From Candidatus Poribacteria bacterium (GTDB taxonomy: Bacteria > Poribacteria > WGA-4E > WGA-3G), in NCBI GenBank assembly GCA_965198235.1, contig OZ240248.1, positions 224,001 through 288,000 on the forward strand: DNA of 64,000 bases, in the 5' to 3' direction. The stretch's first letter is position 1; every line of letters starts with the position of its first letter. Positions 6,856 to 17,445 of this stretch are shown here, one piece after another. A program made the position numbers and the translations under genes. Below the pieces are notes generated by a model, which was not told the origin of the DNA, did not search any database, and worked only from the letters and a program-made list of their open reading frames with translations.

Positions 6856-7015
6856 GTGATAGACCCAAGCCTAAAGACTTGGGCTTCTGCAATCATTAAG
6901 CAGAAGCATTTGTGGAATTCAGAATCGGATGGTTCGATTCAACGGAGGTGCCTACGATTTTGTTAAACAAAACAATAGGTCTTACAACTCCTAACCCAAA
7001 GGAAGCTACCCCTTC
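6856..7015 (-). ncRNA. Putative omegaRNA (reRNA) scaffold overlapping tnpB 3' end; guide would be flanking CAUGCAGAAAUGCCGCAAUG
   Basis: Conserved between both copies with compensatory stems; position matches known TnpB biology; 5' limit approximate. Confidence 0.7.
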
Positions 7016-8107
7016 CTTAAGAATGTTCATAGCAGCGTTCTCGTCGCGGTCGAGGTGTGTCTCACACTTTGGACACGTCCAGTCTCTATCTGATAGCGTG
7101 AGGTTTTGATTTTTATGTCCACAAACAGAACAGCACTTTGTGGTCGGCGACCACCGATTGATTTTCAGCACAGAGCGGATACGCTTTTTGCTCTGGTGTT
7201 TCAGCTTCTGCAGAAACTCACCGAAGGCGAGGTCAGATACCTGTTGACCCCAAAGTTTTTTCATACCGCGAAGGTTGAGGTCTTCAAAGAACAGGATATC
7301 AAACTGCCGACACAACTTTATAGCAAGTTTATAGTGGTGGTCTGTCCTTTGATTCGCCGTTTTCTTATGGATACGGGCAACGTTCTTACGTTCTCGTTCG
7401 AGATTCTGAGAACCTTTGACTTTATGGGAATATACCTTTTGTGCTTCCGCCAACTTTTCAGCGTTGAGTTTGTAGAACATTGGAGACGTATATCTATGAC
7501 CATCACTGCCAGTCAGGAAGTCTTTGATACCAAAATCAAACCCTTCAGCTTGACCCGTCTTGGGTTCAATTTTAATTTCGGTATAGTCTTCTGTCAGCGT
7601 AATATACATATCTCCGAGTGCGTCCCTCTTAACATGAAACTGTTTGATAGCACCTTGTATTTCACGGTGCAACGCGAAACGATACCAACGTCCATTCAGT
7701 CTTATCTTATAGGTCGGGTGGTTTCTTTCGTTCTTCTGCGCGTCAAGCACTTTCTCCAACGCAACTTGTTCACCAGAGAACGTCATCCCTTTGTGTTTCT
7801 TGCACTTCTTGAACTTCGGGTGACCTCTGCCAAGTGTTTTCATTTCTTTGAAACTCTGTGCCAAGCGTTTGAGCATATTCTGAAGACTCCACGCGTAAGG
7901 GATATTCCAATGTTGGTATTTCTCAAGCTTTTTCAGCCGCGTCAAATGTTTCGACATCTTGGAATACGACAAGTCCTTACCATACCGACGGTAATATCGC
8001 CGAGACAACGCATTGAAATGATTCCGAACAACGCCACAGATATTCAGGTCATCCTGGAGATGCTTCAAAGAGGTATCACGAAAAAGTTTATGTGTGGTGT
8101 TTCGCAT
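6896..8107 (-). CDS. tnpB: RNA-guided endonuclease TnpB
   Basis: RuvC D/E/D intact (GFDFG, FEDL, DRDENAA); Zn finger CSVC...CPKC. Confidence 0.95.
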   Translation of the reverse strand: MRNTTHKLFRDTSLKHLQDDLNICGVVRNHFNALSRRYYRRYGKDLSYSKMSKHLTRLKKLEKYQHWNIPYAWSLQNMLKRLAQSFKEMKTLGRGHPKFKKCKKHKGMTFSGEQVALEKVLDAQKNERNHPTYKIRLNGRWYRFALHREIQGAIKQFHVKRDALGDMYITLTEDYTEIKIEPKTGQAEGFDFGIKDFLTGSDGHRYTSPMFYKLNAEKLAEAQKVYSHKVKGSQNLERERKNVARIHKKTANQRTDHHYKLAIKLCRQFDILFFEDLNLRGMKKLWGQQVSDLAFGEFLQKLKHQSKKRIRSVLKINRWSPTTKCCSVCGHKNQNLTLSDRDWTCPKCETHLDRDENAAMNILKEGVASFGLGVVRPIVLFNKIVGTSVESNHPILNSTNASA

Positions 8108-8200
8108 GGTATCTCAAGTCTCAAGTTCTTAACCCCTGAACAGTGGGTAGGCAGACACGTAACCTTGCGATTACGCTGTTCATGTCTGCCAGCTTGATAC
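8108..8200 (-). ncRNA. Structured pseudoknotted tnpB leader RNA, copy 1
   Basis: GGCAGACA/UGUCUGCC, CGUAAUC-GCAA-GGUUACG and UGAACAG/CUGUUCA pairings; covaries with copy 2. Confidence 0.7.
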
Positions 8201-8204
8201 TCTA

Positions 8205-8233
8205 ATTATACCACATTTTTCACCGAAAGTCAA
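8205..8233 (-). promoter_or_regulatory. Sigma70 promoter of tnpB copy 1
   Basis: TTGACT-17-TATAAT with TG extension. Confidence 0.8.
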
Positions 8234-8321
8234 GTCTTTTTTTAACAGAGACCCTCTGGTCTAATTCACAACGGCGAGACTGTATCCCAAACCTAAAGGA
8301 TTGGGTTTTAGTCTCGGAAGG

Positions 8322-8720
8322 TTAGATAAAAGGGAAGGGTTCGTCGCCGTACCGAACAGTGATGACGGTAAATTGACCCAACACATCCGTGTCACCGTTT
8401 TTGCCACGGTAGTTGTACATACCTTTTTCCTCGAAGAATTCAAGCGTGAGATTCTTCAGGTCAAGGGCATAAAGTGCAGCTTTGGTTTCCGCAATTTCTT
8501 CGCTGACATTACTTTCCTCAATCTCAAGGTTCAGGAACTTCCACTTCCCGAGGAGTGTATCGGTTATATTGGTTTTGAGTTTGAGTTCATTATGTTCCTC
8601 GCGGAGGTCCTCGTAATTCTTGAGCAGCTGATCTCGTTCTGCTTGCATCTTTTGATACTCGGTACTTGTACAGCCAGCGAACATCAGAACGCAGATACCA
8701 AAAATAATCCAAGTTTTCAT
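8322..8720 (-). pseudogene. Lipoprotein probably truncated at 3' end by the IS left end
   Basis: Lipobox FAGC; AAGGAG RBS; stop codon lies inside the IS left end. Confidence 0.65.
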
Positions 8721-15670: not shown

Positions 15671-15785
15671 TTAATTATAGAAGGTGTGACGTACACGATA
15701 GAATTTAAGACACTTGCAATCCTGCGATGCTCGGACGGAATGGAGGTGATAGACCCAAGCCTAAAGACTTGGGCTTCTGCAAATA

Positions 15786-16997
15786 TTAAACAGAAGCATT
15801 TGTGGAATTGAGAAGCGGACTACACGCTTCAACGGAGGTGCCGACAATCCTGTTGAACAAAACAATCGGTCTTACGACTCCTAACCCAAAGGAAGCTACC
15901 CCTTCCTTAAGAATGTTCATAGCAGCGTTCTGGTCGCGGTCAAGGTGTGTTCCACAACTTGGGCATGTCCAGTGACGATCTGATAGCGTTAAGTCTTTAT
16001 TATGAGAGTTACAAACAGAACACGCTTTTGTAGTGGGCGACCACCGATGAATCTTCAGCACAGAACGGATACGCTTTTTGCTCTGGTGTTTGAGTTTCTG
16101 CATGAATTCACCAAAAGCAAGGTCAGAAACTTGTTTACCCCACAAGCGTTTCATACCCGAAAGGTTCAGGTCTTCAAAGAACAGGATGTCAAACTTCCGA
16201 CAGAGTTTTATCGCAAGTTTCCAGTGGTGGTCTGTTCGCTGGTTTGCTGTTTTCTTGTGGATACGGGCAACGTTCTTACGCGCTCGTTCCTGATTGTTAG
16301 AACCTTTGACTTTACGGGAATATACCTTTTGTGCTTCCGCCAACTTTTCAGCGTTGTGTTTGTAGAACATCGGAGATATTTCTCGGTGTCCGTCACTGGT
16401 AGTCAGGAAGTCTCTAATACCAAAATCAAACCCTTCAGCTTGACCCGTCTTGGGTTCATATTTGACTTCGCTATAGTCTTCAGTGAGCGTGATGTAAACA
16501 TCTCCGAGTGCGTCTCGTGTAACCTGAACTTCAATGATTTCGCCTTCTATCGGACGGTGCAGGGCGAAACGATACCAACGCCCATTCAATCGGATTTTAT
16601 ACGTCGGGTGATTTCTCTCGTGCTTCTGTTTCTCACAGACCTTTTCAATCTTCACCTGTTCACCGCGAAACGTCATCCCTTTGTGTTTCTGACAGGACTT
16701 GAATTTCGGGTGACCTCTACCTAATGTTTTTATTTCGCGAAAACTTTGTGCCAGACGCTTGAGAACATTTTGCAACGCCCATGAGTAGGGAATATTCCAA
16801 TGCTGGTATTTTTCAAGACGCTTAAGTTTCGTCAAATGCTTACACATTTTCGCAAAAGAAAGTCCCTTACCATACCTACGATAATATCGCATGCAGAGCG
16901 CAAGGAAGTGATTTTTGATAACGCCACAGATATTGCAGTCGTCCTGCAGGTGACGCAACGTCTTATCCTTGAAAAGTTTGTGTTTTGTGTTTCGCAT
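15786..16997 (-). CDS. tnpB: RNA-guided endonuclease TnpB
   Basis: 403 aa paralog of 6896-8107; RuvC and Zn finger intact. Confidence 0.95.
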   Translation of the reverse strand: MRNTKHKLFKDKTLRHLQDDCNICGVIKNHFLALCMRYYRRYGKGLSFAKMCKHLTKLKRLEKYQHWNIPYSWALQNVLKRLAQSFREIKTLGRGHPKFKSCQKHKGMTFRGEQVKIEKVCEKQKHERNHPTYKIRLNGRWYRFALHRPIEGEIIEVQVTRDALGDVYITLTEDYSEVKYEPKTGQAEGFDFGIRDFLTTSDGHREISPMFYKHNAEKLAEAQKVYSRKVKGSNNQERARKNVARIHKKTANQRTDHHWKLAIKLCRKFDILFFEDLNLSGMKRLWGKQVSDLAFGEFMQKLKHQSKKRIRSVLKIHRWSPTTKACSVCNSHNKDLTLSDRHWTCPSCGTHLDRDQNAAMNILKEGVASFGLGVVRPIVLFNRIVGTSVEACSPLLNSTNASV

Positions 16998-17007
16998 TGT
17001 TTTTCCT

Positions 17008-17086
17008 TAGCATCGTTCCCAATGTTACTTGGTTCGGTAGAGACCGCGCCTTGCGGCGCGGGTAACATTCTCTACCAACAATGCTA
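17008..17086 (-). ncRNA. Structured pseudoknotted tnpB leader RNA, copy 2
   Basis: UAGCAUUGUU/AACGAUGCUA, GGUAGAGA/UCUCUACC, CCGCGCC-GCAA-GGCGCGG, AUGUUAC/GUAACAU. Confidence 0.72.
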
Positions 17087-17091
17087 CTTTA

Positions 17092-17121
17092 AGTATAATA
17101 CTTTTTTTAGACAGATGTCAA
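17092..17121 (-). promoter_or_regulatory. Sigma70 promoter of tnpB copy 2
   Basis: TTGACA-18-TATACT. Confidence 0.75.
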
Positions 17122-17218
17122 GTCTTTTTTCAATATAGACCTATGGTCTAATTCACAAGGGCGGGCATTCATCCCAACGCTAAAGCATTGGGCTTTCTGC
17201 CCGTAAACGTGGTAAACC

Positions 17219-17445
17219 GTGAAAAGACGTTGGACGTTAGACATCTTGATTATCTGTGTCCCGTTAGTTATGACGCAAAGACGGCTGCGTTATGGCATTT
17301 TGATGAACCGAGTGGAACACGGAAATTCTCAGACGCATCGGGTCATGCGCATCATCTGGTGGGCGAAGGTGGGGCGAGGACCGGCATCCCACTCACAGTC
17401 GAACCCCACGGAAAACTCACGACAACCTGGGGACGACTGAAGTAA
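17219..17445 (+). pseudogene. Internally deleted secreted LamG-type gene
   Basis: GTG start MKRRWTLDILIICVPLV joined out of frame to DAKTAALWHFDE...VEPHGKLTTTWGRLK. Confidence 0.7.

What the first reader, a model, noticed from the sequence alone, without database searches (positions are those of the whole stretch)
17008..17086. Covarying pseudoknotted leader RNA upstream of both tnpB genes
Seen: between the sigma70 promoter and the tnpB ATG, the two IS copies differ strongly in sequence but share one geometry: 8-bp P1, 7-nt bulge, 7-bp P2 with GCAA tetraloop, P1', 6-7 nt linker, then 7 nt complementary to the bulge. Copy 1 (8108-8200): GGCAGACA UGAACAG CGUAAUC GCAA GGUUACG UGUCUGCC UACCCA CUGUUCA. 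Copy 2: GGUAGAGA AUGUUAC CCGCGCC GCAA GGCGCGG UCUCUACC GAACCAA GUAACAU. An outer stem (UAGCAUUGUU/AACGAUGCUA in copy 2; weaker GUAUCAAG/CUUGAGAUAC in copy 1) closes it next to the translation start. The 3' strand may sit in a small hairpin loop (CCAA/UUGG, CCC/GGG), making a loop-bulge kiss. Known: the TnpB omegaRNA comes from the 3' end, and that scaffold is separately present here. Inference: this is a second, selected RNA of the element, e.g. a translational switch, TnpB autoregulatory site, nuclease-resistant cap or accessory scaffold.
Basis: partly seen in the sequence, partly recalled or inferred. Interest (0 to 1): 0.88.

Follow-up and report, generated by a model that had tools for sequence, protein, structure and literature searches.

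The report
Pseudoknotted leader RNA of tnpB transposons
A compact, knotted RNA fold sits at the very start of the messenger for a transposon's RNA-guided nuclease in sponge-symbiont bacteria, is preserved in many hundreds of copies, matches no catalogued RNA family, and probably gates or stabilises expression of the gene behind it.

Summary
Both tnpB genes lie on the minus strand. Between a near-consensus promoter and each ATG lies a ~95-nt leader with closing helix P0, P1, a 7-nt bulge, P2, a small hairpin P3, and a 7-bp pairing of the bulge with the P3 loop.

In 85 distinct copies, 31 of 31 proposed pairs show changes on both sides. The pseudoknot is fully paired in 81 of 85, using 48 different words.

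The motif is found in 107 of 151 Poribacteria genomes searched. It stands before TnpB clades only 33-45% identical to each other. No Rfam 15 family matches it, and the literature searches found nothing.

Two new facts:
- The 3' strand of P0 is tandemly duplicated and both copies covary with the 5' strand. The distal copy abuts or covers the Shine-Dalgarno-less start codon.
- In one genus the promoter+motif cassette also precedes unrelated genes.

Best reading: a cis-acting, bistable 5' leader that controls translation and stability. It is not TnpB-specific. The function is untested.

The parts
17092..17121 (-). Promoter of copy 2: TTGACA, 18-nt spacer, TATACT
   Evidence: 11 of 12 matches. The -10 hexamer ends at 17092, 5 nt before P0.
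17077..17086 (-). Copy 2, P0 5' strand (UAGCAUUGUU), at the inferred 5' end of the RNA
   Evidence: It pairs with 17008-17017, or alternatively with 16994-17001.
17036..17076 (-). Copy 2 core: P1 (17069-17076 with 17036-17043), 7-nt bulge (17062-17068), P2 (17055-17061 with 17044-17050), GCAA loop (17051-17054)
17018..17032 (-). Copy 2, small hairpin P3 (CCAA/UUGG) whose loop carries the pseudoknot 3' strand GUAACAU (17022-17028)
   Evidence: Pseudoknot complementarity.
17008..17017 (-). Copy 2, proximal P0 3' strand (AACGAUGCUA). An AAGGA Shine-Dalgarno-like word follows at 17004-17008.
16994..17001 (-). Copy 2, distal second partner of the P0 5' strand (AACAAUGC), covering the tnpB AUG (16995-16997)
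   Evidence: Read. Tandem partners across the family.
15786..16997 (-). tnpB of copy 2 (403 aa)
15745..17210 (-). Whole IS1341-type element, copy 2 (left-end hairpin, promoter, leader, tnpB, 3' scaffold and right-end hairpin)
   Evidence: An empty-site contig joins 15744 to 17211, with 3 nt of ambiguity. The right-end word GGGTCTATCAC lies at 15746.
8205..8233 (-). Promoter of copy 1: TTGACT, 17-nt spacer, TG-TATAAT
   Evidence: 11 of 12 matches, with an extended -10.
8108..8200 (-). Copy 1 leader: P0 5' strand 8193-8200; P1 8183-8190 with 8150-8157; bulge 8176-8182; P2 8169-8175 with 8158-8164; loop 8165-8168; P3 CCC 8145-8147 with GGG 8134-8136; pseudoknot 3' strand 8137-8143; proximal CUUGA 8121-8125; distal CUUGA 8114-8118
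6896..8107 (-). tnpB of copy 1 (403 aa)
6856..8325 (-). Whole element, copy 1 (approximate ends)
   Evidence: The right-end word lies at 6856. The left boundary comes from comparison with a near-identical copy elsewhere in the genome.

Best explanation
This is a genuine, selected, cis-acting 5' leader RNA. It forms one cassette with the promoter of IS200/IS605-family (IS1341-type, tnpB-only) elements of Poribacteria.

The transcript is inferred to start within about 2 nt of helix P0. It folds into a compact core: P1 and P2 are separated by a 7-nt bulge, and that bulge pairs with the loop of a small downstream hairpin (P3). P0 closes the whole fold.

The 5'-terminal strand of P0 has two tandem partners. 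Pairing with the proximal one leaves the roughly 10-13 nt before the AUG free. Pairing with the distal one buries that ribosome landing zone. In the subfamily of the finding (copy 2), the distal pairing buries the AUG itself.

I therefore read the leader as a two-state gate on translation of an mRNA that lacks a Shine-Dalgarno sequence. In both states the mRNA's 5' end stays base-paired, which should also protect it from 5'-end-dependent decay.

Shown: the structure, its covariation, the tandem partners, the lack of a Shine-Dalgarno sequence, the distribution, and the independence from tnpB.
Inferred: the transcription start, the two-state behaviour, the effects on translation and stability, and whatever sets the balance between the states.
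For: Structure:
- 13 copies, MAFFT alignment: 96.9% of cells paired, 0 of 500 shuffles reach it.
- 85 distinct copies: 31 of 31 pairs changed on both sides, 98.3% paired against 76.6% shuffled and 32-43% slid.
- Pseudoknot fully paired in 81 of 85 with 48 different words. Cross-pairing of unrelated copies gives 158 of 6992.
- In a second set chosen by TnpB similarity, the pseudoknot is fully paired in 47 of 51, with 26 words.

Strand: nested helices hold 72 G-U against 9 A-C cells in one set, and 51 against 12 in the other.

Promoter: it ends 5-6 nt before P0.

Tandem partners:
- 78 of 85 copies have two sites for a 5-nt core.
- 49 of 85 have two sites for a 6-nt core, with 19 distinct cores. 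The cross control gives 205 of 5182.
- The distal site ends 5-6 nt before the AUG in 40 copies and overlaps the AUG or coding sequence in 4.
- The two registers differ by a median of 2.9 kcal/mol, and 36 of 78 lie within 3 kcal/mol.

Shine-Dalgarno sequence: an SD-like word is present before 3 of 72 and 1 of 47 leaders. It is present before 297 of 657 long ORFs of the genome and in 481 of 5000 random windows.

Conservation: the leader stands before TnpB clades only 33-45% identical to the query. It was found in 107 of 151 genomes of the phylum.
Against: - No transcript data. The only RNA runs are metatranscriptome contigs, which cannot show starts, ends or strand. The start site is inferred from promoter consensus alone.
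- In the common subfamily (type I, copy 1), the AUG itself is unpaired in both registers (structures).
- The proximal, open register is favoured by more than 3 kcal/mol in 38 of 78 copies, so the closed state may be rarely populated.
- Cassettes before non-tnpB genes keep both tandem partners although the distal one is 26-110 nt from the next start codon. Hiding a start codon therefore cannot be the only role.
- No trigger for switching is known.
- The nested helices of the large alignments were fitted to the model, which favours them. The pseudoknot was not in the model.
Confidence: 0.45

Rival explanations
1. The leader is a constitutive 5' module with no switching. It either shields the 5' end from RNases (a 5' stabiliser or exonuclease block) or acts on the transcribing polymerase so that it reads through to the 3' omegaRNA region, like a promoter-proximal antitermination RNA. 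On this reading the tandem P0 partners are redundancy.
For: - The fold begins at the inferred 5' end.
- Almost every nucleotide is in a helix, and few unpaired positions are conserved across the three subfamilies.
- The cassette also serves unrelated genes that have their own Shine-Dalgarno sequences 26-110 nt downstream. This fits a generic promoter-proximal function.
- The comparison with 5' stabilisers and with phage HK022 put RNA is recalled, not tested.
Against: - It does not explain why two 3' partners are both kept by covariation.
- It does not explain why tnpB leaders avoid a Shine-Dalgarno sequence.
- There are no half-life or termination data.
Confidence: 0.2
2. The leader is an operator RNA bound by a protein: TnpB or its omegaRNA complex (autoregulation), or a host protein. 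Binding sets the P0 register.
For: - The P1 helix is conserved in sequence as well as in pairing within each subfamily: 64-83 of 85 copies share the commonest pair at each P1 position.
- The motif is linked to tnpB in 74 of 88 hits.
Against: - The leader does not resemble the element's own 3' scaffold.
- The P1 sequence differs completely between subfamilies.
- The same leader serves TnpB clades 33-45% identical.
- Cassettes persist, with compensated pseudoknots, before non-tnpB genes.
Confidence: 0.12
3. The leader is a self-cleaving ribozyme with a fold like a circularly permuted pistol ribozyme (a hairpin loop pairing with the 5' side of an internal loop). It would cut at the invariant G|U junction between P2 and P1.
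For: - The pairing topology matches.
- The A before the bulge, the C after it, and the G-U step are nearly invariant: 83, 83 and 83 of 85 (pairs 28-55 and 37-54).
- The pistol architecture is recalled from memory, not taken from a call.
Against: - No ribozyme family of Rfam 15 matches at E up to 10 or up to 1.
- The junction nucleotides are predicted to be paired, leaving no unpaired catalytic positions.
- The order of the domains differs.
- There is no evidence of cleavage.
Confidence: 0.05
4. The structure forms in single-stranded DNA of the transposon's top strand and acts in TnpA-mediated excision or insertion, not as RNA.
For: - IS200/IS605 elements move as single-stranded DNA and use hairpins (established knowledge of the family).
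- The G-U over A-C bias fits the top DNA strand as well as it fits the mRNA.
Against: - The left-end and right-end hairpins are separate and lie elsewhere.
- The fold starts exactly after a promoter.
- Cassettes without any transposon end keep the structure by compensation.
- GCAA loops dominate, 50 of 85.
Confidence: 0.05
5. The leader is a metabolite-sensing riboswitch whose aptamer is the pseudoknotted core and whose expression platform is the tandem P0 partner.
For: - Two alternative registers lie next to the start codon.
- The core is a compact pseudoknot.
Against: - Few unpaired nucleotides are conserved across the three subfamilies, so no obvious ligand pocket exists.
- The apical loop of P2 tolerates a 28-nt insertion.
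- The downstream genes are mobile-element genes with no shared metabolism.
Confidence: 0.05

Closest known systems
Translational control structures of other insertion sequences (IS10/IS50 fold-back inhibition; the IS200 tnpA 5' UTR stem-loop).
   Same: An RNA helix inside the element's own 5' leader hides the ribosome binding region of a transposon gene and keeps expression low.
   Different: - Those are single hairpins or long-range pairings without a pseudoknotted core.
- They act on the transposase, not on tnpB.
- They have no tandem alternative partner.
- There is no sequence or model relationship.
hok-family mRNAs with coupled covariations (alternative pairings of a 5' element with two partners).
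   Same: Three-way covariation reveals mutually exclusive helices that involve the 5' end and the translation start region.
   Different: Different genes and different architecture. The hok partners lie hundreds of nucleotides apart, and switching there depends on 3' processing.
TnpB omegaRNA (right-end RNA)
   Same: It belongs to the same element, and it is a structured RNA with pseudoknots in the solved examples (recalled).
   Different: - The omegaRNA overlaps the 3' end of tnpB and runs across the right end to carry a guide.
- The leader lies at the 5' end, wholly inside the element, about 125 nt from the left boundary.
- The leader has no guide-like flank and no similarity to the 3' scaffold.
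Rfam IS605-orfB-I (RF03065) and the other 4226 families of Rfam 15
   Same: IS605-orfB-I is also a structured RNA associated with IS605 orfB (tnpB) genes.
   Different: - No match in the window at gathering score.
- No match around either element at E up to 10.
- No match in 16 further leader-bearing loci at E up to 1.
- RF03065 finds nothing in the whole genome at E up to 1. That call's control genomes also gave no match.
Pistol self-cleaving ribozyme. Its architecture is recalled.
   Same: A hairpin loop forms a 6-7-bp pseudoknot with the 5' side of an internal loop between two coaxial helices.
   Different: The order of domains is permuted. There are no unpaired catalytic nucleotides. No covariance-model match. 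No evidence of cleavage.

Membership tests
Any Rfam 15 family (including IS605-orfB-I, ribozymes, riboswitches) | Covariance-model match at or near the family's gathering score | tested here: not met
   - 0 matches in 64 kb.
- only unrelated matches of 15-20 bits, against gathering scores of 40-47 bits, and none on the leader.
- 0 matches at E up to 1 in 16 loci (57.5 kb).
- RF03065 gives 0 matches in the genome.
TnpB omegaRNA | Encoded at the 3' end of tnpB and running over the right end, so that flanking DNA supplies the guide | tested here: not met
   The leader lies between the promoter and the ATG, inside the element. It shows no similarity to the conserved 3' 240 nt.
Structured cis-regulatory 5' leader RNA | Lies between promoter and start codon on the sense strand | tested here: met
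   - Promoters.
- The model match ends exactly at the ATG in 55 of the 61 loci searched, in a set chosen by TnpB similarity.
- G-U over A-C bias.
Structured cis-regulatory 5' leader RNA | Secondary structure supported by compensatory changes | tested here: met
Structured cis-regulatory 5' leader RNA | Measured effect on expression of the downstream gene | not testable with these tools
   Needs reporter or probing experiments.
Start-site-sequestering switch (IS10/IS200-like) | An alternative helix occludes the ribosome binding site or start codon | tested here: inconclusive
   The distal partner ends 5-6 nt before the AUG in 40 copies and overlaps the AUG or coding sequence in 4. The AUG itself stays unpaired in the common subfamily, and the open register is usually favoured.
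Pistol ribozyme | Pseudoknot between a hairpin loop and an internal loop (feature recalled) | tested here: met
   This is a match of topology only.
Pistol ribozyme | Conserved catalytic nucleotides, domain order and self-cleavage | tested here: not met
   No model match. The domain order is permuted. Cleavage cannot be tested here.
Riboswitch | Conserved unpaired nucleotides forming a ligand pocket across all members | tested here: inconclusive
   The unpaired stretches differ between the three subfamilies. The closing pairs and the G-U step are conserved.

The most novel reading that the evidence does not exclude
TnpB transposons of Poribacteria carry a previously undescribed class of bistable sensor RNA. 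The knotted core would read a cellular signal (a protein, a small molecule, or the state of the RNA's own 5' end) and flip the closing helix between two tandem registers. This would decide when the RNA-guided nuclease is made. The same promoter+sensor cassette has been captured by host and defence genes. A bolder version holds that the core is a new self-cleaving fold related to pistol by circular permutation.
Probability: 0.2. Interest if true: 0.85.

Novelty: new variant of a known kind. Interest (0 to 1): 0.62.

Why it matters
TnpB is the ancestor of Cas12 and is a genome-editing tool. How its own expression is controlled inside transposons is little known. Here a second, strongly selected RNA of the element appears, at the opposite end from the guide RNA. 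It has three notable properties:
- an unusual bulge-to-loop pseudoknot;
- a three-way covarying closing helix;
- conservation that exceeds that of the protein it precedes.

The motif gives a ready-made, covariation-validated RNA with hundreds of natural compensatory variants for structural and regulatory study. It also shows that a transposon's promoter+leader cassette can be reused by other genes. Its known range is one uncultivated phylum, and its function is still inferred. Both limit its immediate reach.

Tried and rejected
1. Rfam: nothing matched. Asking for a family by the name 'Poribacteria-1' was not accepted, and I do not know its accession. I can only say that no family of the library matched, not that this named family was checked by name.

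2. Literature. None of these searches or passages described a tnpB 5' leader structure:
- 'TnpB + leader + pseudoknot'
- 'IS605-orfB'
- 'TnpB + untranslated region + cyanobacteria'
- 'Poribacteria-1' (0 papers)
- 'Poribacteria + RNA motif' (0 papers)
- 'TnpB + autoregulat + mRNA'
- 'Poribacteria + TnpB' (0 papers)
- passages read in PMC11701678, PMC8136920, PMC5737381 (0 mentions of Poribacteria, IS605 or orfB in the main text) and PMC9956272

The supplement of PMC5737381 lists that paper's 224 motifs. It may bear on novelty.

3. Expression. The run search gave only metatranscriptome contigs holding 13-15% of the words, plus runs of unknown kind. Laying four RNA runs gave fragments that cannot show starts, ends or strand. 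Loose ends at 16997 (2 contigs in X1, 4 in X3) continue into leader-like sequence of related copies. DNA carry-over is not excluded, so I do not count this as evidence of transcription. The low cover over 17036-17163 says nothing.

4. A third partner for the variable 7-mer. Its own word or complement is no more frequent elsewhere in the same element than the words of other copies are. Rejected.

5. Mimicry of the omegaRNA by the leader: only chance 6-8-nt matches. Rejected.

6. Diversifying selection on the pseudoknot. It differs in 6 of 8 element pairs whose first 600 nt of tnpB are 90-95% identical. However, identical words also occur before distant TnpB clades, so exchange of leader modules explains this as well. 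Left open.

7. My first count of two P0 partners was confounded: its cross control gave 3706 of 5304. I replaced it with the core-word count.

9. Rows left out:
- Copy c11 (genome 4993640) was omitted from alignment A1 because it has no leader.
- Of loci L001-L101, 88 were given. Left out were L011, L021, L023, L025, L028, L029, L034, L083, L089-L092, L094 and L098. They were duplicates, had no leader, or looked decayed.
- Of L102-L165, 61 were given. L157, L159 and L163 lack the gene's 5' end.

Full report
WHAT IS THERE

Both carry the Pfam families OrfB_IS605 and Cas12f1-like_TNB.

Read on that strand, the sequence between promoter and ATG is exactly as quoted. It runs through these parts in order:
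- a closing helix (P0);
- an 8-bp P1;
- a 7-nt bulge;
- a 7-bp P2 with a GCAA loop;
- the 3' strand of P1;
- a 6-7-nt linker;
- seven nucleotides complementary to the bulge, sitting in the loop of a 3-4-bp hairpin (P3).

A promoter matching 11 of 12 consensus positions ends 5-6 nt before P0 in each copy. The RNA should therefore begin at the foot of P0.

Each gene sits in a tnpB-only element of the IS200/IS605 family:
- An empty-site contig in a public run joins window 15744 to 17211.
- The right end carries a conserved terminal word at 15746 and at 6856.
- The left-end hairpin lies upstream of the promoter.

IS IT MORE THAN CHANCE?

The same genome holds 14 copies of this TnpB at 78-100% identity. 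Thirteen of them have the leader.

On a plain MAFFT alignment of these 13:
- 96.9% of cells form standard pairs, against 82.0% after shuffling (0 of 500 shuffles reach it) and 31-45% when partners are slid.
- Six of the 7 pseudoknot pairs show changes on both sides.
- All the unpaired pseudoknot cells come from one row that is shifted by one column.

A covariance model built without the pseudoknot finds 26 copies in the genome. All of them stand directly before TnpB-like frames. These include clades only 33-45% identical to the query.

Across 88 matches from many genomes (85 distinct rows):
- All 31 proposed pairs show changes on both sides, and 98.3% of cells are paired, against 76.6% shuffled and 32-43% slid.
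- The pseudoknot is fully paired in 81 of 85 and has one mismatch in the other 4. It uses 48 different words.
- Pairing the bulge of one copy with the tail of another succeeds in 158 of 6992 cases.

A second set, chosen by TnpB similarity rather than by the motif, gives a fully paired pseudoknot in 47 of 51, with 26 words.

Two caveats apply. The nested helices of the two large alignments were fitted to the model; the pseudoknot was not. And the copies are related by descent, so cells are not independent events.

WHICH STRAND AND WHICH MOLECULE

In the nested helices, G-U cells outnumber A-C cells 72 to 9 in one set and 51 to 12 in the other. The sense strand is therefore the one that folds.

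That bias alone would also fit the top DNA strand of the transposon. RNA is the better reading for three reasons:
- The fold starts right after a promoter.
- GCAA loops dominate, 50 of 85.
- Copies without any transposon end keep the structure (see 'Not tied to tnpB' below).

NEW FEATURE: A DUPLICATED CLOSING STRAND

The 3' strand of P0 occurs twice in tandem. The two copies lie 7 nt apart in the common subfamily (type I, copy 1) and 12-18 nt apart in the subfamily of the finding (type II, copy 2). Both copies covary with the 5' strand:
- 78 of 85 leaders have two sites for a 5-nt core.
- 49 of 85 have two sites for a 6-nt core, with 19 distinct cores. The cross control gives 205 of 5182.

The distal site ends 5-6 nt before the AUG in 40 leaders, and it overlaps the AUG or coding sequence in 4. 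In copy 2 the distal partner (16994-17001) covers the AUG.

Forced folding puts the two registers a median of 2.9 kcal/mol apart, with the proximal one favoured. The range is -8.1 to +5.3, and 36 of 78 lie within 3 kcal/mol.

The leaders also avoid Shine-Dalgarno words. Such a word is found before 3 of 72 and 1 of 47 leaders. It is found before 297 of 657 long ORFs of the genome and in 481 of 5000 random windows. This pattern is what a two-state gate on translation would look like. No experiment shows it.

DISTRIBUTION

The records found with the protein are almost all Poribacteria MAGs: 63 of 64 loci. The exception is a cyanobacterial record at 31% identity, which has no leader.

| Search | Genomes with the motif |
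|---|---|
| First model, own genus | 36 of 36 |
| First model, family (G000 included) | 97 of 112 |
| Second, broader model, phylum sample | 107 of 151 |

- The family search returned about 1,360 matches.
- In the phylum sample, two families carry the motif (89 of 99 and 17 of 26 genomes), and seven other families gave 0 of 25.
- The motif was seen in 5 of 22 genera.

Three subfamilies share the architecture but differ completely in helix sequences. The following features are nearly invariant:
- the A before the bulge;
- the C-G pair that opens P2;
- the G-U step between P2 and P1;
- the hairpin that presents the pseudoknot strand;
- the tandem P0 partners.

NOT TIED TO tnpB

Of the 88 hits, 74 are followed by a TnpB-like frame. 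The other 14 break down as follows:
- Two sit at contig ends.
- Two precede another TnpB clade, judged by reading the ORFs.
- Two look decayed.
- Eight, all of the finding's subfamily (type II) and all in one sister genus, have a promoter and an intact motif. They show no similarity to tnpB, the left end or the right end.

In those eight, the next genes have their own Shine-Dalgarno sequences. One of them is a DNA methylase, N6_N4_Mtase at E 2.4e-35.

Three such copies from three genomes share flanks but differ by compensated changes in the pseudoknot. The fold is therefore under selection even without tnpB. This weakens a TnpB-specific role and favours a generic cis function.

WHAT IT IS NOT

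- No Rfam 15 family matches the window, the two elements or 16 further loci. RF03065 finds nothing in the genome.
- The leader does not resemble the element's 3' end. The last 240 nt of the element are separately conserved, with 58 predicted pairs, 9 of them compensated.
- The variable 7-mer has no third partner in the element.

VERDICT

This is a real, new, pseudoknotted leader RNA family. It is best read as a bistable cis element that controls translation and 5'-end stability of the mRNA behind it.

I am about 95% confident that it is a selected structured RNA, and about 45% confident in the proposed mechanism. The rivals are a constitutive stabiliser or antiterminator, a protein operator, a ribozyme, a DNA structure and a riboswitch. 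Experiments are needed to tell them apart.

Noticed in passing
Genome C1:2106833-2106875 and C1:2575407-2575448 (outside the window; loci L005, L013): A 43-nt palindromic insertion splits the -35 region of two tnpB elements at the same position. These are its only two copies in the genome. The two elements have different pseudoknot words. One has CTG in place of the ATG and the other has a split tnpB. This suggests exchange of 5' modules between elements.
   Followed up: partly
L125:477-603, L127:475-603, L131:475-603: In three leaders from other Poribacteria genomes, a 28-nt G+C-rich hairpin replaces the P2 tetraloop. The rest of the fold, including the pseudoknot, stays intact.
   Followed up: no
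L085, L097, L100, L088, L093, L099, L086, L101 (sister genus): Promoter+motif cassettes stand without tnpB or transposon ends, in front of unrelated genes. One of these genes is an N6_N4 DNA methylase. Some cassettes retain the first codons of tnpB as a relic.
   Followed up: partly
window 15745-15985 and 6856-7095 (minus strand): The last ~240 nt of both elements overlap the tnpB 3' end. They are more conserved than the rest of the gene and fold into several stem-loops, some with compensatory changes. This is probably the omegaRNA scaffold plus the right-end hairpin. No Rfam family matches it.
   Followed up: partly
window 17211-17220 and 8326-8330 (minus strand flanks): The DNA just outside the left end reads TTTAC (copy 2) and TTTAT (copy 1). 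A TTTAC word recurs just inside copy 2. This is a candidate target or transposon-adjacent motif.
   Followed up: no
Genome C1:4993640-4994845 (locus L011): One full-length tnpB copy, 78% identical, lacks the promoter and leader. The left-end hairpin lies about 45 nt from its ATG.
   Followed up: no
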